DNA of 64,000 nucleotides from Candidatus Hydrogenedentota bacterium (GCA_034669905.1 JAXMOL010000045.1:2584-66583); one strand, 5' to 3'. Shown: positions 20,385 through 26,297, counted from the stretch's first letter. The notes: generated from the letters alone by a model not told the origin. A program made the numbers and translations.

Positions 20385-20684
20385 TCAGTCGAAGCGTTTC
20401 TCAATGCAGTCCATAATGCTCTTGAGGTAGGGATCAGAAATCTTATAGAAGGTCTGGCGCCCTCGGCGTTCGGCGCGCAGGAGCCGCCGGTCCCGCATTT
20501 TGCCCAGGTGCTCGGAGGCGATATGACTGGGGATATTGCACGCCTCCGCCAGTGCGCCCACGGGGTAATCGTCCTGGAGCAGCAATTGGAGCAGGCGGAG
20601 CCGGAGTGGGTGGGCCAGTGTGCGCAGACATTCGGCGGCTTGGGCGAGTCCATCGGGACTGGTTGTTGTGGGCGTGGTGGGCAT
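20385..20684 (-). CDS. ArsR/SmtB family repressor
   Basis: LRTLAHPLRLRLL...VGALAEAC...SEHLGKMR...ERRGRQTFY; three Cys. Confidence 0.9.
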   Translation of the reverse strand: MPTTPTTTSPDGLAQAAECLRTLAHPLRLRLLQLLLQDDYPVGALAEACNIPSHIASEHLGKMRDRRLLRAERRGRQTFYKISDPYLKSIMDCIEKRFD

Positions 20685-20847: not shown

Positions 20848-20920
20848 AATTATTTCAGCCCCGAGCGTTAAAGAAAGCTATCGTATGGAGCCGGTGTCGG
20901 GTCCGATGAAGGAGGTTGCC

Positions 20921-23764
20921 ATGAAACTGGGAGAATCTGTAGCACGCGTCTCGCTGGACCATCCCCGCATGATTGCGGGCATCATGGTGGTCTTGTGTGT
21001 CGTCATCGGGTCGACCGCCCTGCTACCCTCGGTGCTGCCGGATACCTTTCCCATGCTGCACGGGGTGAAGGTAGACACCGATCCGGAAAACATGTTGAGC
21101 AAAGAAGAGGCCGTCCGTGTTTTCCACAATGACATGAAGGAGGTCTTCGCGCTCAACGACATTGTGGTCCTCGGTGTGGTAAACGAGACGGATCCGCAGG
21201 GGGTCTTCAATCCTGCGTCCCTTCGTAAAATCTATGATCTGACCGAATTCGCCCTGACCCTGCGCGGGGAGGCCATCGGTGAAGTGGACCCGCAAGCGGG
21301 AGTAATCCGCGCCGATGTCATTGCGCCATCCACGGTGGACAATATCGAGCAGGGGGGGCCGGGCGTGGTGCGCTTTGAATGGCTGATGCCCGAAGCGCCC
21401 GCGACGGATGCCGAGGCGCTGGCGGTACGGGACAAGGCCCGTCGCATACCTTTCCTGGATGGTACGTTGCTGTCGGAAAGTGGTCAGGCCTTGTGTCTTT
21501 ACCTGCCGCTCACTTCCAAGGACCTGAGCTACCGCGTCTATTCCGAACTGCGCGAAAAGATTGCTGGACTTGGTGGGGAGGAGCGCTTTTTTATCACGGG
21601 GCTACCGGTGGCGAATGACACCTTTGGTCATGAGATGTTTGTGCAAATGGCGATCTCCGCACCGACAGCCATGTTTGTCATTTTTCTTTTGATGTTGCTG
21701 TTTTTCCGGAAACTGGTGCTCATCGTATCGCCCTTGCTCATCGCATTGGCGGCCGTGATATGCACCATGGGGCTGCTGGTGGCTACGGGGAACACGATCC
21801 ACATCATGAGCTCCATGATTCCAATCTTCATCATGCCTATCGCGGTGCTGGATTCTATCCATATCCTTTCCGAGTTTTTCGACCGCTATCAGCAGACGCG
21901 AGATCGGCGAAAGACCATGGTGGGCGTCATGGAGAGCCTCTTTGCGCCCATGCTCTACACCTCGCTCACGTCGGCCGCAGGTTTTGCGTCCTTGGCGCTG
22001 ACGCCCATCCCTCCCGTACAGACCTTTGGGATCTTTGTCGCCCTGGGAATTATGCTGGCCTGGCTCTTTACAATCACCTTCATACCGGCCTACATCATGT
22101 TCATCCCGGAGCGGCGGCTGGAGAACTTCGGCATGGCCGATACTTCGGTGGTCGAGACGGCGCAGGACAAGAGTCTCGTGGGGCGCTTTCTCCATCTCAT
22201 GGGGTATTTTACCTTCCACCATGCGAAAGCCGTGATTGCCGTCTCGGTGCTCGTGCTGGTCGTCGCCTTCGTGGGCATGAGCCGTATCCGCATTAACGAC
22301 AATCCCACCAACTGGTTCAAATATGACCATCCTATCCGTGTGGCGGACCGGGTGCTGAACGAGCATTTTGGCGGCACCTATATGGCCTACCTCGTGCTGC
22401 GTGCCCCCGGCGAGACCGGGGCCATTGCCCCATCGGATGGCGATGCTGTGTCCGAAGGCGTCCCGGAGACACCCGCTTTACCGTCGGGAATGGGTGGTGA
22501 TGAGGCGCCCGCTCTGCCAGCTGGATTGGGCGGTGATGAGGCGCCCGCCCTTCCTGCAGGATTGGGTGGCGATGACGGGCCCGCCTTGCCGGCAGGGCTC
22601 GGTGGAGACGGACCCGCGATGGAGGCCGAAGTGTCGGTTGCAGCCCCCGAGGCGGAAGCCACCTTCAAGAATCCGGAAGTGCTCCGATACATGCGTCGCT
22701 TGCAGGAACACTTGCTGACCACCGGTGTGGTGGGCAAGTCCAACTCGCTGGCCGACATTGTGAAAACGGTTCACCGGGAATTGATAGACGGGAGCGAGGC
22801 CAATTTCCGTATCCCGGATAGCTCGGCCGCGGTGGCCCAGTGTCTCATGCAATACCAGAGCAGCCACCGTCCCGGTGATCTCTGGCACATGGTAACCCCC
22901 AACTACCGCCAAACCAGCCTCTGGGTACAACTGCGCAGTGGTGATAATCTGGATATGACCCACGTGGTGAGTTCGGTGGAGGCCTTCTTCGCCGAGAACC
23001 CACCCCCGGTCCCCCTGGAGCATGAATGGTTTGGCCTGTCCTACATCAACGTGGTGTGGCAGCAGAAGATGGTCGCGGGCATGCTGCAGGCCTTCCTGGG
23101 CAGCTTTCTCGTGGTGCTGCTCATGATGATTATCCTGTTTCGGTCGGCCCTTTGGGGATTGCTCTCCATGATTCCCCTGACGCTGACCATCGCCCTCATC
23201 TACGGCGTGGTGGGGCTCGTCGGGAAGGATTACGACATGCCGGTGGCCGTCCTGTCTTCGCTGACCCTTGGCCTGGCGGTTGACTTCGCCATCCACTTTC
23301 TTGCACGAACCCGTGCGCTCTATGCGGAGCATGGCTCCTGGGATGCCTGCCATGATCACGTGTTTGGCGAGCCGGCCCGGGCGATTACCCGCAATGTGGT
23401 GGTCATCGCTGTGGGCTTTACTCCCTTGTTGCTGGCCCCGCTCCTGCCCTATGTCACCGTCGGCATTTTCCTGGCATCGATTCTGCTCGTGTCGGGTCTG
23501 GCCACCCTGTTGATTCTGCCGTCGTTGGTGCGGCTTCTGGAGCCCCTGTTGTTTCCCAAGACAGCGGCGTGCTCCATGCTTTGCCAGTTTGGCACCACGT
23601 TCGTGGCCAGTGTGACGGCGATTGCGCTGTTGGCGGTAAACGTCCACCCCTTTATCGCGCTGAGCTGGACCACCCTGGGGGCTATCTGTACCGCGCTGAC
23701 GGTAGTTGCCGCCCTGGTTGCCTGGGCTCTGGCGCGCCGTGCGTCCTGTCGGAACGAACTGTAA
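20921..23764 (+). CDS. MMPL/RND superfamily transporter
   Basis: Two-fold TM repeat; IAVLDSIHILS and GLAVDFAIHFL motifs; large periplasmic loops. GGAGG RBS before ATG 20921. Confidence 0.9.
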   Translation: MKLGESVARVSLDHPRMIAGIMVVLCVVIGSTALLPSVLPDTFPMLHGVKVDTDPENMLSKEEAVRVFHNDMKEVFALNDIVVLGVVNETDPQGVFNPASLRKIYDLTEFALTLRGEAIGEVDPQAGVIRADVIAPSTVDNIEQGGPGVVRFEWLMPEAPATDAEALAVRDKARRIPFLDGTLLSESGQALCLYLPLTSKDLSYRVYSELREKIAGLGGEERFFITGLPVANDTFGHEMFVQMAISAPTAMFVIFLLMLLFFRKLVLIVSPLLIALAAVICTMGLLVATGNTIHIMSSMIPIFIMPIAVLDSIHILSEFFDRYQQTRDRRKTMVGVMESLFAPMLYTSLTSAAGFASLALTPIPPVQTFGIFVALGIMLAWLFTITFIPAYIMFIPERRLENFGMADTSVVETAQDKSLVGRFLHLMGYFTFHHAKAVIAVSVLVLVVAFVGMSRIRINDNPTNWFKYDHPIRVADRVLNEHFGGTYMAYLVLRAPGETGAIAPSDGDAVSEGVPETPALPSGMGGDEAPALPAGLGGDEAPALPAGLGGDDGPALPAGLGGDGPAMEAEVSVAAPEAEATFKNPEVLRYMRRLQEHLLTTGVVGKSNSLADIVKTVHRELIDGSEANFRIPDSSAAVAQCLMQYQSSHRPGDLWHMVTPNYRQTSLWVQLRSGDNLDMTHVVSSVEAFFAENPPPVPLEHEWFGLSYINVVWQQKMVAGMLQAFLGSFLVVLLMMIILFRSALWGLLSMIPLTLTIALIYGVVGLVGKDYDMPVAVLSSLTLGLAVDFAIHFLARTRALYAEHGSWDACHDHVFGEPARAITRNVVVIAVGFTPLLLAPLLPYVTVGIFLASILLVSGLATLLILPSLVRLLEPLLFPKTAACSMLCQFGTTFVASVTAIALLAVNVHPFIALSWTTLGAICTALTVVAALVAWALARRASCRNEL
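22466..22620 (+). repeat. Four ~36-bp in-frame repeats encoding PALP(S/A)G(M/L)GGD
   Basis: ETPALPSGMGGD-EAPALPAGLGGD-EAPALPAGLGGD-DGPALPAGLGGD inside the MMPL gene. Confidence 0.85.
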
Positions 23765-23813
23765 ACGTGAAGCATAGGCCAGCCGCGCTGGCAAAACGTT
23801 AAGGAGATTGACG

Positions 23814-24623
23814 ATGAAAAAAGTACTACTAACCGGCCTCTTGACCGTGGCCCTGACTGCCGGGGTGGGGGCCTTTGCCCAGGCTGCTCCTTCGGTCGAA
23901 GAAATCGTGACCAAGGCCAATCATATGTCCTACTACCAGGGGCCCGACGGTCGGGCGAAGGTCACGATGACCGTGAAGGATAAGCAGGGCAGAAGCCGCA
24001 CAAAGGCCTTTACCATCCTGCGTATGAACACGGACGACCAGGACAAGACCCAGCGGTTCTATGTATATTTTCACGAGCCGTCCGACGAGCGGGGAACGGT
24101 CTTCATGGTGCACAAGCACGTGGATAAGGATGACGACCGCTGGCTCTATCTGCCCGCCCTTGATCTGGTGAAGCAAATTGCCGCCAGTGATGAACGGACC
24201 AGTTTTGTGGGATCGGACTTTTTCTACGAAGACGTGTCCGGGCGTGGGCTTGACGAGGATTCGCACGAGCTTATCGAGACAACGGCCAACGCCTACGTGT
24301 TAAAGAACACGCCAAAGGACAGAGGTGCCGTGGAGTTTGATTCGTATACCATGTATATCGACAAGAACTTCTTTATCCCCTACGAAGTGCGTTTCGAAAA
24401 GGGGGGCGTGGTGTATCGTATCGCGAAAGTCCTCGCTGTGAAAGACACTACTGGTTCCGACGGAACGGTCTATAAGACCGTCACGAAGTCCCAGATGGTG
24501 GATGTGGAATCTGGCGGGTCCACCACCCTCGACTACAGTGACGTACAGTACGGTGTGGGCCTGACGGAAGATATATTCACTGAGCGGTATCTTCGGAAGC
24601 CGCCACAGGAATTTTTGAAATAG
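23814..24623 (+). CDS. Outer membrane lipoprotein-sorting (LolA-like) periplasmic protein
   Basis: Signal peptide; FHEPSDERGTVF..., DDRWLYLPAL..VKQIA...SFVGSDFFYED pattern of the RND-associated LolA-like family. Confidence 0.85.
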   Translation: MKKVLLTGLLTVALTAGVGAFAQAAPSVEEIVTKANHMSYYQGPDGRAKVTMTVKDKQGRSRTKAFTILRMNTDDQDKTQRFYVYFHEPSDERGTVFMVHKHVDKDDDRWLYLPALDLVKQIAASDERTSFVGSDFFYEDVSGRGLDEDSHELIETTANAYVLKNTPKDRGAVEFDSYTMYIDKNFFIPYEVRFEKGGVVYRIAKVLAVKDTTGSDGTVYKTVTKSQMVDVESGGSTTLDYSDVQYGVGLTEDIFTERYLRKPPQEFLK

Positions 24624-24788
24624 TTTGGAATGCTGCTGAGAAAAGGCGGCTCGGCACGTCCGGGACCCAGAGGGAGTGTAGACCCAGGATGAATTGCGCG
24701 CGCGCGAGTGGCACCCTGCTGCTCACTTTGGGCATATTCGATACACTGGAATCATCACAGCACGCAACGGCTAGTTCGGAGGTGATAC

Positions 24789-26297
24789 ATGGGATATTCA
24801 ATACGTAGATTGGGGTCGATTCGCATGATCGCTTATGTGCCACACCGCTGGATCGCCACCCTGTGTGTTGTTGTGCTCGCGCTGCCCGCCGTCGCCCAGG
24901 ACGAACCAGCCTTACCCCCGGGGCTCGTGCCCGAAACCCCCGCTTCGGAAGAGCCGTCCCTGCCACCCGGGTTGGGCGGCGGTACAGAATCTCCGTCTTT
25001 GCCACCCGGCCTCGGTGGGGATTCGGAGTCGCCATCCTTGCCGCCTGGTTTGGGTGGTGACACGGACGACAGCCCCGCCACGGACGGCACGACGGACCTG
25101 CGGTTGACCGACCGTCTTCCCGCCTGGCTTCATGGTTTCTGGGAAACCCGTGTCGGGATGCGTACCCACAACGACCCGGAACAGCCCGGTGATCTCAGCA
25201 TTGGCGAGTCCCGACTCCAATTGGAGGCGAAGAAGCACTGGGGCGACACGGCCCTGGAGGTGACGGCGGATGTTTATGGTGATGTCGTGACCGAAGAGGC
25301 GGAGTTTGATTTGCGCCAGTTCCGGTTGACCTTTTCACCGGTAGACGCCGTGGACGTGCGGGTGGGTCGTCAGGTATTGACCTGGGGGACCGGTGACCTG
25401 CTGTTTATCAATGACCTGTTTCCGAAGGATTGGCAATCCTATTTCCTCGGACGTGACCAGGAATATCTCAAGGCACCGTCCGACGCCATCAAGGTGGGGT
25501 GGTACCCAAAATGGCTGAACATGGAGGTGGTCTACACGCCCCGCTTTGACCGTGATCGGTTTATTCGGGGCGAACGGGTGACCTACTTCAGTCCAATATT
25601 TGGCCCTTCGGGACGAGACCGTCAGGTGCAAACGAGCCCGCCCAACGATTGGTTTCAGGATGATGAGGTGGCCCTCCGGCTCTATCGGCGGGTGAAGGGC
25701 TTCGAGCTGGCCCTCTACGGCTATCGGGGCTATTGGAAGAGCCCGGCAGGCCAGACCTTTGTGCCCTTCGAGGCCACCCACCCGCGCCTGAATGTCTATG
25801 GTGCCAGCGCCCGGGGCCCGGTGGGGAAGGGGCTCCTGAACGTGGAATTGGGCTATTACGATTCCCGGGACGATTCGGATGGGAGCGATTTTGGCGTGAA
25901 CAACAGCGAATGGCGATTCTTAATCGGCTATGAGCGCGAGCTTGCCAAGGAACTCACCGGGGCGATCCAATATTATGTGGAGCATATGGTCGACTACGAC
26001 AACTACGCTGCGTCACCGTTCTTCCGGATATTTCCCAAACGGGACGAGGACCGCCACGTGGTGACGGTCCGGCTGACGAAACTGTTGATGGACCAGAATC
26101 TGATCCTGTCCTTTTTTGCCTATTACAGCCCTAGCGACCAGGATGCCTTTCTACGGCCAAAGAGCACCTACAAAGTAAATGACCGTTGGACCGTGGAAGG
26201 GGGCGGCAACCTATTCCTGGGAAAGGATGACCACACCTTTTTCGGCCAGTTTGAGAAGAGCACCAACGTATACGTGTCGGCGCGCTATTCCTTTTGA
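24789..26297 (+). CDS. Outer membrane beta-barrel protein (DUF1302-like)
   Basis: GGAGGTGA RBS, signal peptide, VRVGRQVLTWGTGD, alternating beta-strand pattern, C-terminal YSF. Confidence 0.8.
   Translation: MGYSIRRLGSIRMIAYVPHRWIATLCVVVLALPAVAQDEPALPPGLVPETPASEEPSLPPGLGGGTESPSLPPGLGGDSESPSLPPGLGGDTDDSPATDGTTDLRLTDRLPAWLHGFWETRVGMRTHNDPEQPGDLSIGESRLQLEAKKHWGDTALEVTADVYGDVVTEEAEFDLRQFRLTFSPVDAVDVRVGRQVLTWGTGDLLFINDLFPKDWQSYFLGRDQEYLKAPSDAIKVGWYPKWLNMEVVYTPRFDRDRFIRGERVTYFSPIFGPSGRDRQVQTSPPNDWFQDDEVALRLYRRVKGFELALYGYRGYWKSPAGQTFVPFEATHPRLNVYGASARGPVGKGLLNVELGYYDSRDDSDGSDFGVNNSEWRFLIGYERELAKELTGAIQYYVEHMVDYDNYAASPFFRIFPKRDEDRHVVTVRLTKLLMDQNLILSFFAYYSPSDQDAFLRPKSTYKVNDRWTVEGGGNLFLGKDDHTFFGQFEKSTNVYVSARYSF
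24897..25075 (+). repeat. Four in-frame repeats encoding P(A/S)LPPGL(GG)
   Basis: EPALPPGLVP, EPSLPPGLGGG, SPSLPPGLGGD, SPSLPPGLGGD. Confidence 0.85.

What the first reader, a model, noticed from the sequence alone, without database searches (positions are those of the whole stretch)
22466..25075. Same PxLPxGLGG(D) repeat in both the MMPL transporter and its OM barrel
Seen: four PALP(A/S)G(L/M)GGD units in a periplasmic loop of the MMPL protein, and four P(A/S)LPPGL(GG) units just after the barrel's signal peptide. The codons differ between copies, so the peptide rather than the DNA appears conserved. The LolA-like gene between them lacks the motif. Inference: a short linear motif on flexible tethers at both membranes that could capture the periplasmic LolA-like shuttle, or a shared modification/processing signal.
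Basis: partly seen in the sequence, partly recalled or inferred. Interest (0 to 1): 0.62.

Follow-up and report, generated by a model that had tools for sequence, protein, structure and literature searches.

The report
Shared docking-type repeat in pump and barrel
An inner-membrane pump and its outer-membrane barrel in an uncultured Hydrogenedentota bacterium both carry floppy periplasmic tails with repeats of the same seven-residue motif (P-x-L-P-x-G-L); in this phylum tandem copies occur almost only in this transport system, so the motif probably helps couple the two membranes, but its binding partner is still unknown.

Summary
The MMPL/HAE3 pump (20885-23764) has four PALP(S/A)G(M/L)GGD units in a loop of its second periplasmic domain. 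The barrel (24789-26297) has four P(A/S)LPPGL units directly after its signal peptide. The LolA-like gene between them has none.

The core [E/A]-P-x-L-P-x-G-L is invariant at P, L, P, G, L in 440 barrel and 159 pump units, while spacers and codons vary. In the 7.4-Mb genome only these two proteins carry tandem units. In 135 genomes of the phylum, tandem units fall at one or two sites of this gene set.

Co-occurrence is nested. Almost every barrel of the clade has 3-6 units. About half the pumps have 2-5 units, which replace a fixed-length (93-99 aa) insert at the same site. No pump has the motif without its barrel having it.

Two AlphaFold2 read-through models (LolA-like+barrel; pump+LolA-like) predict both tails disordered, with no confident docking.

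Best reading: a system-specific short linear docking motif on acidic tethers, both addressing one receptor that also exists in pumps lacking the motif. The LolA-like carrier is the leading candidate but is unproven. It is a new feature of a known, uncharacterised module (DUF1302-like barrel / LolA-like / HAE3 pump).

The parts
20385..20684 (-). ArsR/SmtB-type regulator, divergent from the operon
   Evidence: NCBIfam NF033788 66.6 bits (cut-off 55) and Pfam HTH_5/HTH_20. Earlier notes of this scan report ArsR-headed copies of the same module in other genomes.
20885..23764 (+). MMPL / HAE3-type RND inner-membrane transporter (959 aa; homologs start at M13)
   Evidence: Pfam MMPL 80.3 bits, Patched SSD and Sterol-sensing domains. 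TIGR00921 HAE3 155 bits, below its 351.9 cut-off. The AF2 model of the 78%-identical L002 ortholog shows the 12-TM two-lobe RND fold, pLDDT 85-97.
22400..22663 (+). Variable loop of periplasmic domain 2 (aa 506-593), 'state A': acidic Pro/Ala/Gly-rich tether
   Evidence: It lies between the conserved FGGTYMAYLVL strand and FKNPEVLRYM. The equivalent loop in the L002 model (residues 494-541) has pLDDT 38-45. In 63 of 117 homologs the same site holds a 93-99-aa, Pro-poor insert without the motif.
22472..22600 (+). Four motif units PALPSGM / PALPAGL x3 (22472-22492, 22508-22528, 22544-22564, 22580-22600), 12-residue period
23808..24623 (+). Secreted LolA-like protein (271 aa), no motif
   Evidence: Pfam LolA_like PF17131 161 bits and DUF1329 32.8 bits. 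Closest solved structures are LolA3 of P. gingivalis 9tp6, 3bk5 and 4z48. None of 120 homologs has LPxGL.
24789..24896 (+). Barrel signal peptide (aa 1-36, ...LALPAVA|QDE)
   Evidence: Read from the sequence. The hydrophobic core plus AxA site is conserved in homologs. Cleavage itself is inferred.
24897..25124 (+). N-terminal periplasmic tether of the barrel (aa 37-112): 14 D+E, 2 K+R, 16 Pro, no aromatic residue
   Evidence: Composition. pLDDT 39-61 in the AF2 model.
24906..25052 (+). Four motif units PALPPGL / PSLPPGL x3 (24906-24926, 24954-24974, 24993-25013, 25032-25052), 13-16-residue period
   Evidence: 118 of 120 homologs carry 1-6 such units (113 with 3 or more) at the same place.
25125..26297 (+). 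Outer-membrane beta-barrel, distant DUF1302 relative, ends ...ARYSF
   Evidence: AF2 pLDDT above 90, all-beta. Foldseek matches 16-18-strand porin/AlgE/MOMP barrels at TM about 0.55. PF06980 scores 14.4 bits here (cut-off 23.2) but 25-35 bits in close homologs.

Best explanation
P-x-L-P-x-G-L is a short linear docking motif specific to this transport system. It is displayed in 2-6 copies on acidic, disordered periplasmic tethers. One tether hangs from the barrel's N-terminus at the outer membrane. In one lineage of pumps a second tether replaces a folded insert in periplasmic domain 2 of the MMPL pump at the inner membrane. Both tethers address the same receptor. That receptor must also exist in systems whose pump lacks the motif. 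The most likely receptor is the LolA-like carrier encoded between the two genes. On this reading the tethers concentrate the carrier at the donor (pump) and acceptor (barrel) ends of a route that moves a hydrophobic cargo across the periplasm. Shown here: conservation of the motif, its restriction to this system, its disorder, its topology and its nested distribution. Inferred: that it binds anything, the identity of the receptor, and the direction and nature of the cargo. The confidence given (0.4) is for the full statement with the LolA-like carrier as receptor; the broader claim that this is a specific docking motif and not a spacer I put at about 0.75.
For: (1) Constraint at peptide level. 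P(-2), L0, P1, G3 and L4 are 94-100% conserved in 440 barrel units and 159 pump units. Positions -1 and 2, spacer sequence and spacer length (8-27 residues) vary freely, even within one protein. Codons differ between copies, and a low-GC genus keeps the peptide with AT-rich codons.
(2) Specificity. Only these two proteins in the 7.44-Mb genome carry tandem units. In 135 genomes of the phylum the tandem pattern falls at one site (barrel) or at two sites 2.2-2.5 kb apart on one strand (pump and barrel), with near-zero control hits. The same holds in a Nitrospirota and a Desulfococcaceae genome.
(3) Nested distribution. Over loci with full coverage there are 31 barrel+/pump-, 17 barrel+/pump+ and 0 barrel-/pump+.
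(4) The pump motif replaces an insert at a fixed site. 54 pumps have the variable 60-130-aa motif loop and 63 have a 93-99-aa Pro-poor insert. Barrels keep 3-6 units in both cases, so the receptor is not that insert.
(5) Both segments are predicted disordered and lie on the periplasmic side. The barrel tether is about 65-75 residues long and strongly acidic, long enough by contour length to cross the periplasm (inference).
(6) Link to the carrier. The LolA-like ortholog and the motif co-occur in 58 genomes, with 5 motif-only and 7 carrier-only out of 135. This includes genus g27, where the motif barrel lies about 25 kb from the LolA-like gene, and the two g27 genomes without the motif also lack the carrier. 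A pump and a LolA-like domain share one ORF in a gammaproteobacterial genome and in T. oleivorans TOL_3187 (PMC6304351), which argues that carrier and pump act in contact.
Against: No binding is shown. AlphaFold2 on natural read-through chains gave no confident docking. In LolA-like+barrel the motif pLDDT is 39-61 and pTM 0.56. In the pump+LolA-like chain of ortholog L002 the motif loop has pLDDT 38-45. This test has low sensitivity: monomer weights, unpaired alignments, several competing repeats, and no coordinates returned.
Only six LolA-like positions separate motif-bearing from motif-less systems, so there is no sign of a dedicated groove.
The pump motif is dispensable in more than half of the systems.
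One genome (G076) has a motif barrel but no detectable LolA-like gene; the assembly has 290 contigs.
Strings resembling the motif also occur in unrelated low-complexity tandem repeats in metagenomes.
Confidence: 0.4

Rival explanations
1. Direct bridging. The receptor is a conserved periplasmic surface of one of the two membrane proteins. The barrel's tether reaches down to the pump's periplasmic domains, or the pump's loop reaches up to the barrel's periplasmic face, tying the two membranes together. The LolA-like protein works inside this bridge.
For: The tethers are long enough by contour length (inference). The insertion site in the second periplasmic domain is where mycobacterial MmpLs carry a cell-wall-spanning coiled coil (PMC12183618). 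In motif-less systems the barrel has no tether and the pump insert is much longer, about 170 aa, which suggests a trade-off between elements that provide reach.
Against: If the pump core were the receptor, the pump's own motif would compete in cis. If the barrel were the receptor, its own tether would compete. AF2 did not dock the barrel tether on the barrel or the pump loop on the pump.
Confidence: 0.2
2. The motif binds a general envelope component encoded elsewhere, such as peptidoglycan or an unlinked periplasmic protein, and so positions both proteins relative to the cell wall.
For: No receptor was identified inside the operon. Porin-like barrels with N-terminal periplasmic anchoring extensions exist; OmpM1 and DcaP were among the fold matches. 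G076 has the motif barrel without a detectable LolA-like gene.
Against: A general receptor should be used by other proteins, yet tandem units are confined to this gene set in the genome and in the phylum. The motif tracks the LolA-like ortholog across 135 genomes.
Confidence: 0.12
3. Homotypic 'sticker' interactions. The units of the two tethers, or of neighbouring barrels, associate with each other and zip the tethers together or oligomerise the barrel.
For: The same motif occurs on both partners. The sticker-and-spacer layout has regular 12-17-residue spacing.
Against: More than half of the systems have the motif on the barrel only. A seven-residue Pro/Gly-containing unit has no known self-association mode (own knowledge). 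AF2 predicts no structure.
Confidence: 0.07
4. There is no specific partner. The segments are entropic spacers whose similar composition arose by repeat expansion.
For: Both are low-complexity and acidic. The pump array still shows a 36-bp DNA repeat. (LPPG)n-like arrays exist elsewhere.
Against: Five positions are invariant over about 600 units from several phyla, while neighbouring positions, spacers and codons drift. A pure spacer would not hold P-x-L-P-x-G-L. The pump evolved the barrel's motif rather than merely a linker.
Confidence: 0.06
5. The motif is a recognition site for a modifying or processing enzyme, such as a protease, prolyl hydroxylase or glycosyltransferase.
Against: No invariant Ser, Thr, Cys, Lys or Asn. 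Pump units mostly lack the PPG that collagen-type prolyl hydroxylases act on. No enzyme gene is conserved next to the operon.
Confidence: 0.05

Closest known systems
AmeABCD of Castellaniella defragrans and the P. putida set PP_0765/PP_0766 + PP_2018/PP_2019 (DUF1302 barrel, DUF1329 LolA-superfamily protein, BNR/Ycf48-like protein, HAE3 RND pump)
   Same: An HAE3/MMPL-type pump, a LolA-superfamily periplasmic protein and a DUF1302-type barrel, with no AcrA-type adaptor or TolC. Genetics link the module to hydrophobic compounds: monoterpenes, Tween 20 and fatty esters (PMC6394551; bioRxiv 10.1101/2020.07.04.188060; PMC10866462).
   Different: Here there are three genes in the order pump-carrier-barrel and no BNR protein in the operon. 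The carrier is the short PF17131 type (271 aa, against 451 aa for AmeB). The barrel is only a sub-threshold DUF1302 match. No PxLPxGL tether is mentioned in those papers, and the motif-less relatives examined here also lack it.
Thalassolituus oleivorans TOL_3187 / TOL_3188
   Same: A MMPL pump with a LolA-like domain, followed by a porin-like protein. Both are strongly induced on the long-chain alkane n-C28 (PMC6304351).
   Different: There the carrier is fused to the pump. A comparable single ORF was seen here in G167. No tether motif is known in that system.
Lol pathway docking (LolC 'hook' to LolA; LolA to LolB mouth-to-mouth)
   Same: A LolA-fold carrier is recruited by a short protruding element of the inner-membrane machine and hands cargo to an outer-membrane acceptor (own knowledge; LolA-LolB data in PMC13103446).
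   Different: There is no LolCDE ABC transporter or LolB here. The closest solved relative, LolA3 of P. gingivalis, does not bind LolB and has no assigned function. The element here is a repeated linear motif on a disordered tether, not a folded hairpin.
Coiled-coil extension in the second periplasmic domain of mycobacterial MmpL4, MmpL5 and MmpL10
   Same: An insertion in the second periplasmic domain of an MMPL transporter that projects across the envelope (PMC12183618; PMC11850643 and PMC12501195 listed).
   Different: The mycobacterial insert is a roughly 255-residue helical hairpin that trimerises into a tube. Here the site holds either a 93-99-aa insert or a disordered motif tether. That the two sites are equivalent is inferred, not aligned.
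Pro-rich periplasm-spanning regions (TonB, TolA) and porins with N-terminal periplasmic extensions (OmpM1 SLH domain, DcaP coiled coil)
   Same: Extended, Pro-rich or N-terminal periplasmic segments that connect a membrane protein to a partner across the periplasm (own knowledge; OmpM1 and DcaP appear among the barrel's fold matches).
   Different: Those use charged dipeptide repeats or folded domains. None carries a repeated P-x-L-P-x-G-L unit shared with an inner-membrane partner.

Membership tests
RND superfamily, MMPL / HAE3 branch (pump) | Pfam MMPL match above the gathering score | tested here: met
   PF03176 80.3 bits against 20.5, plus Patched SSD and Sterol-sensing domains.
RND superfamily, MMPL / HAE3 branch (pump) | Twelve TM helices in two 1+5 lobes, each with a large periplasmic domain after its first helix | tested here: met
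   AF2 model of the 78%-identical ortholog L002: helix bundles plus two alpha/beta domains at residues about 25-210 and 440-665, pLDDT 85-97.
RND superfamily, MMPL / HAE3 branch (pump) | NCBIfam TIGR00921 (HAE3) above its curated cut-off | tested here: not met
   155.1 bits against 351.9; HpnN TIGR03480 72 bits against 752. It is a divergent branch and not an HpnN equivalog.
LolA_like (PF17131) / LolA superfamily (carrier) | Family HMM above cut-off and the open beta-sheet LolA fold | tested here: met
   161 bits against 30. Foldseek to 9tp6 (TM 0.80), 3bk5, 4z48 and 3buu.
Canonical Lol pathway | LolCDE ABC transporter and LolB partner; conserved LolA arginine | not tested
   The operon has no ABC transporter or LolB. 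The genome was not searched for them. The LolA3 relative lacks the LolA and LolB signature residues and does not bind LolB (PMC13103446).
DUF1302 (PF06980) outer-membrane barrels | Family HMM above gathering score | tested here: not met
   Window protein 14.4 bits against 23.2 (E 0.019). Close homologs score 25-35 bits, and motif-less L010 scores 35.4 bits. It is a distant subfamily.
DUF1302 (PF06980) outer-membrane barrels | Large beta-barrel with a signal peptide and a C-terminal aromatic residue | tested here: met
   All-beta model with pLDDT above 90. Porin/AlgE-type fold matches. The protein ends in ...RYSF.
Four-part AmeABCD-type module | BNR / Ycf48-like periplasmic protein encoded with the other three | tested here: not met
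   No fourth conserved gene in the window operon or in more than 60 related loci. The genome was not searched for an unlinked copy.
Short linear motif (SLiM) on a disordered region | 3-10 residues with a few fixed positions, conserved across orthologs while flanks drift | tested here: met
   Logo over 440 + 159 units. Variable spacers and variable position 2.
Short linear motif (SLiM) on a disordered region | Lies in intrinsically disordered sequence | tested here: met
   pLDDT 38-61 in two AF2 models with otherwise confident domains. Composition is 22.6% Pro and 16.9% D+E.
Short linear motif (SLiM) on a disordered region | Binds a folded partner domain | tested here: inconclusive
   No confident docking in the AF2 read-through chains. 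No multimer tool or coordinates were available.

The most novel reading that the evidence does not exclude
The two multivalent tethers (4 + 4 units here) each line up several LolA-like molecules, so that carriers are scaffolded into a chain or dense zone spanning the periplasm. This would be a tether-assembled, Lpt-like hydrophobic conduit built from soluble LolA-fold units instead of a fixed protein bridge. A variant of this reading: the Leu/Pro units occupy the empty carrier's hydrophobic cavity as a cargo mimic, so that only unloaded carriers are held at the membranes.
Probability: 0.1. Interest if true: 0.85.

Novelty: new variant of a known kind. Interest (0 to 1): 0.58.

Why it matters
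Pump + LolA-like carrier + barrel modules occur in hundreds of species of many phyla, and genetics link them to alkanes, terpenes and fatty esters. Nobody knows how their three parts find each other without an AcrA-type adaptor or a TolC channel. A short, invariant, system-specific peptide displayed by both membrane components gives a direct experimental handle. Synthetic peptides can fish out the receptor, point mutants can uncouple the system, and the choice between motif tether and folded insert marks the pump's coupling site. It is also a clear bacterial example of a linear motif acquired by a second protein of the same machine.

Tried and rejected
1. The first block alignment for the LolA-like+barrel chain (A1) placed barrel rows onto the LolA part. 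I rebuilt it with three extra natural read-through rows (A3). About 14 residues per barrel row still sit in the LolA part, which may lower pLDDT there.
2. Covariation between motif position 2 and partner residues was abandoned, because position 2 varies freely within single proteins.
3. Residues specific to motif-bearing systems were sought in the LolA-like protein. Only six positions turned up and they form no evident patch.
4. Two apparent pump-carrier fusions were discarded: L020, where the two parts lie in different frames, and L199/G075, where a run of masked X bridges the genes. G167 (L047) is a clean single ORF.
5. A three-unit DNA pattern over metagenomes returned 20 barrels, 1 pump and 2 truncated barrels. 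It also returned about 45 simple perfect (LPPG)n-type arrays in short or odd ORFs. The pattern is therefore not specific outside the phylum, and those arrays lack the spacer-separated layout.
6. A phmmer search of the 58-aa tether against 1.84 billion representatives gave only 10 hits: barrel fragments and unrelated low-complexity proteins. It is probably blunted by composition filtering and says little about global distribution.
7. I suspected an AMIN-like domain ahead of the tether in variant P0366; Pfam did not confirm it.
8. Literature searches for LPPGL plus outer membrane, and for LolA-like plus RND motif terms, found nothing on this motif.

Full report
WHAT IS THERE. On the + strand lie three co-directional genes. 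The first is an MMPL/HAE3-type RND pump (20885-23764, 959 aa; Pfam MMPL 80 bits). The second is a secreted LolA-like protein (23808-24623; PF17131 161 bits). The third is a 502-aa outer-membrane barrel (24789-26297). An ArsR/SmtB regulator (20385-20684) is divergent from them. Names attached to homologs place the organism in Candidatus Hydrogenedentes/Hydrogenedentota. The genome holds no paralog of the carrier or barrel and only one distant MMPL.

The pump carries PALPSGMGGD followed by three PALPAGLGGD (22472-22600). The barrel carries PALPPGL and three PSLPPGL (24906-25052), beginning three residues after the signal-peptide site. The LolA-like protein has none. Codons for the invariant Pro, Leu and Gly differ from copy to copy, and unit DNA identities are 48-81%. 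The pump array still scores as a 36-bp tandem repeat with 82% matches. A six-frame scan of the whole 7.44-Mb assembly finds tandem units in these two proteins only.

THE MOTIF IS A CONSTRAINED PEPTIDE. Among the 120 best barrel homologs (52-86% identity), 118 have 1-6 units after the signal peptide, and 113 of them have three or more. Aligning 440 barrel units and 159 pump units on LPxG[LMIVF] shows that a Pro two residues upstream, which was not part of the search pattern, is present in 100% and 97% of them. L0, P1 and G3 are fixed by the pattern, and L4 is Leu in 99% and 94%. Position -3 is mostly Glu or Ala. Position 2 is mostly Pro in barrels and Ala in pumps, but it takes many residues even within one protein. 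Spacers run from 8 to 27 residues (mode 15) in barrels and 10-15 in pumps. They are acidic and almost free of Lys and Arg: 16.9% D+E against 2.1% K+R over 76 systems. A low-GC genus writes the same peptide with AT-rich codons. None of 120 LolA-like homologs has even one LPxGL.

IT IS SPECIFIC TO THIS SYSTEM. A two-unit degenerate DNA pattern was run over all 135 held genomes of the phylum. It matched 66 genomes, against about a dozen matches in total for the reversed control. In the matches listed (the list is cut off after genome G113), apart from three chance or low-complexity hits, they fall at one place, at two places 2.2-2.5 kb apart on one strand (4.2 kb in G091), or on two contigs of one fragmented assembly. 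Fetching about 50 of these places showed that they are the barrel N-terminus and, where there are two, the pump loop. A Nitrospirota and a Desulfococcaceae genome likewise have the pattern only at the barrel. Outside the phylum, a three-unit pattern over metagenomes also picks up simple (LPPG)n-type perfect repeats in unrelated short ORFs. The bare string is therefore not unique in nature. The spacer-separated layout was seen only in barrels and pumps of this family.

CO-OCCURRENCE IS NESTED. The gene order pump, carrier, barrel holds across Hydrogenedentota, Nitrospirota, Nitrospinota, Desulfobacterota, Kiritimatiellae/Verrucomicrobiota, Phycisphaerae and Gammaproteobacteria. All 117 full-length pump homologs fall cleanly into two states at the site between FGGTYMAYL.L and FK.PEVLRY. 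State A (54 pumps) is a Pro-rich loop of variable length (60-130 aa) with one or more units (nearly all 2-5). State B (63 pumps) is a Pro-poor insert of nearly fixed length (93-99 aa in 57 of 63), with a conserved ..AW(E/D)(E/D).L.F...E.QR...FKQPE.L tail and no motif. Over loci with full coverage I count 31 barrel+/pump-, 17 barrel+/pump+ (two are duplicates of L001 and L002) and 0 barrel-/pump+. More distant systems have neither: the barrel starts at the first strand (LHGF.) and the pump insert is longer, about 170 aa (L010, L011; L015 has neither motif but a shorter insert). On a pump tree built without the loop, state needs at least four changes, but strongly supported branches force only one. 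Because the outlying lineages are state B, state A is most simply derived: a pump lineage swapped a folded insert for a tether carrying the motif its barrel already had.

WHAT THIS IMPLIES (inference). Barrels keep the motif whether the pump is in state A or B, so the receptor exists in both and is not the state-B insert. The pump acquired the same five fixed residues, so pump loop and barrel tether presumably address the same receptor. Candidates are the LolA-like carrier, a conserved periplasmic surface of pump or barrel, or an unlinked factor.

LINKS TO THE CARRIER. Across the 135 genomes, 58 have both the motif and a LolA-like ortholog, 5 have the motif only, 7 have the carrier only and 65 have neither; the five motif-only genomes include three single-hit genomes below the cut-off of the match list, so their hits were not inspected. 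Most of this follows from operon linkage. In genus g27, however, the motif barrel sits next to purL/purQ and RNase D, about 25 kb from the LolA-like gene on the same contig. The two g27 genomes without the motif also lack the carrier. A pump and a LolA-like domain share one uninterrupted 1085-aa ORF in a gammaproteobacterial genome, where the old signal peptide survives as a hydrophobic segment. T. oleivorans TOL_3187 is described in the same way (PMC6304351).

STRUCTURE TESTS. No multimer tool was available, so I used natural read-through chains. The carrier and barrel genes are in the same frame in the window (P0362, 803 aa). The pump and carrier genes are in the same frame in ortholog L002 (1200 aa). 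Alignments were block-structured and checked. The read-through linker scores 22-37. The ten-residue blocks covering the four barrel units (residues 341-390) score 39, 48, 53, 59 and 61. In the second model (mean pLDDT 84, pTM 0.71) the loop 494-541, which holds both units, scores 38-45. It sits between a strand and helix (472-492) and helix 550-564 of the second extramembrane domain. That domain is periplasmic in RND proteins (established knowledge). Neither model supports docking on the carrier, pump or barrel. Sensitivity is low, because the runs used monomer weights and unpaired rows, several repeats compete, and only pLDDT was returned. In both models the most conserved stretch of the carrier (RWLYLPALDLVKQIAASDERTSFVGSDFFYEDV) is also poorly defined, with pLDDT 44-59. 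This is unexplained.

FOLD ASSIGNMENTS. The carrier matches LolA3 of P. gingivalis (9tp6, TM 0.80), 3bk5 and the DUF1329 protein 4z48. The barrel matches 16-18-strand porin, AlgE and MOMP barrels at TM about 0.55. LolA3 does not bind LolB and has no assigned role (PMC13103446). The barrel is a sub-threshold DUF1302 match (14.4 bits against 23.2), while its homologs pass.

COMPARISON WITH KNOWN SYSTEMS. The module is the three-gene relative of AmeABCD (monoterpene tolerance; PMC6394551). It is also related to the Pseudomonas DUF1302/DUF1329/BNR/RND set needed on Tween 20 and fatty esters. It lacks the BNR protein. Mycobacterial MmpL4, MmpL5 and MmpL10 carry a wall-spanning coiled coil in the second periplasmic domain, so an envelope-spanning element at this location has precedent. 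I found no description of the P-x-L-P-x-G-L tether in the literature searched.

VERDICT. The motif is a system-specific linear motif on periplasmic tethers at both membranes, but capture of the LolA-like carrier remains a hypothesis, and the one test available neither supported nor excluded it. I give about 0.4 to the carrier as receptor, and about 0.75 to the broader claim that this is a specific docking motif rather than a spacer. The cargo and the direction of transport are unknown.

Noticed in passing
window 24075-24170 (LolA-like aa about 115-147 of the precursor): The most conserved stretch of the LolA-like protein (RWLYLPALDLVKQIAASDERTSFVGSDFFYEDV) is the least confident part of that domain in both AF2 models (pLDDT 44-59). 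It may be a lid or partner-dependent element.
   Followed up: partly
L186-L193 and L219-L226 (genus g27, genomes G049-G058): The operon is split. The motif-bearing barrel lies downstream of purL/purQ and an RNase D gene, about 25 kb from the LolA-like gene on the same contig. Two genomes of the genus (G051, G056) lack both barrel motif and carrier.
   Followed up: yes
L206 4953-6885 (G091:C17): Two genes are inserted between the LolA-like and barrel genes: a 431-aa AAA_15/AAA_21 ATPase and a 229-aa protein with no family hit. They look like a mobile or defence-type pair that landed inside the operon.
   Followed up: partly
L047 1327-4581 (-) (G167:C191): An uninterrupted 1085-aa ORF joins a MMPL pump to a LolA-like domain. 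The carrier's former start codon and signal peptide are retained between them. A 408-aa ORF with no Pfam hit follows.
   Followed up: partly
L015 3580-3840: A motif-less gammaproteobacterial barrel has a different acidic N-terminal extension with Asp/Trp repeats (NDDWGDDDWNGDDWGEDPW), possibly an alternative tether motif.
   Followed up: no
P0366 (653-aa barrel homolog from the representative search): A variant barrel carries an extra N-terminal region of about 170 aa ahead of four EPGLPPGLGG units. Pfam finds no domain in that region.
   Followed up: partly
window 20385-20684 (-): An ArsR/SmtB-type regulator is divergent from the operon. Earlier notes of this scan report the same pairing in other genomes, which hints at a conserved regulatory input of unknown ligand.
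   Followed up: no
L010 5611-8580, L011 160-3138: Kiritimatiellae/Verrucomicrobiota pumps have a much longer insert (about 170 aa) at the same site, and their barrels lack any N-terminal tether.
   Followed up: partly
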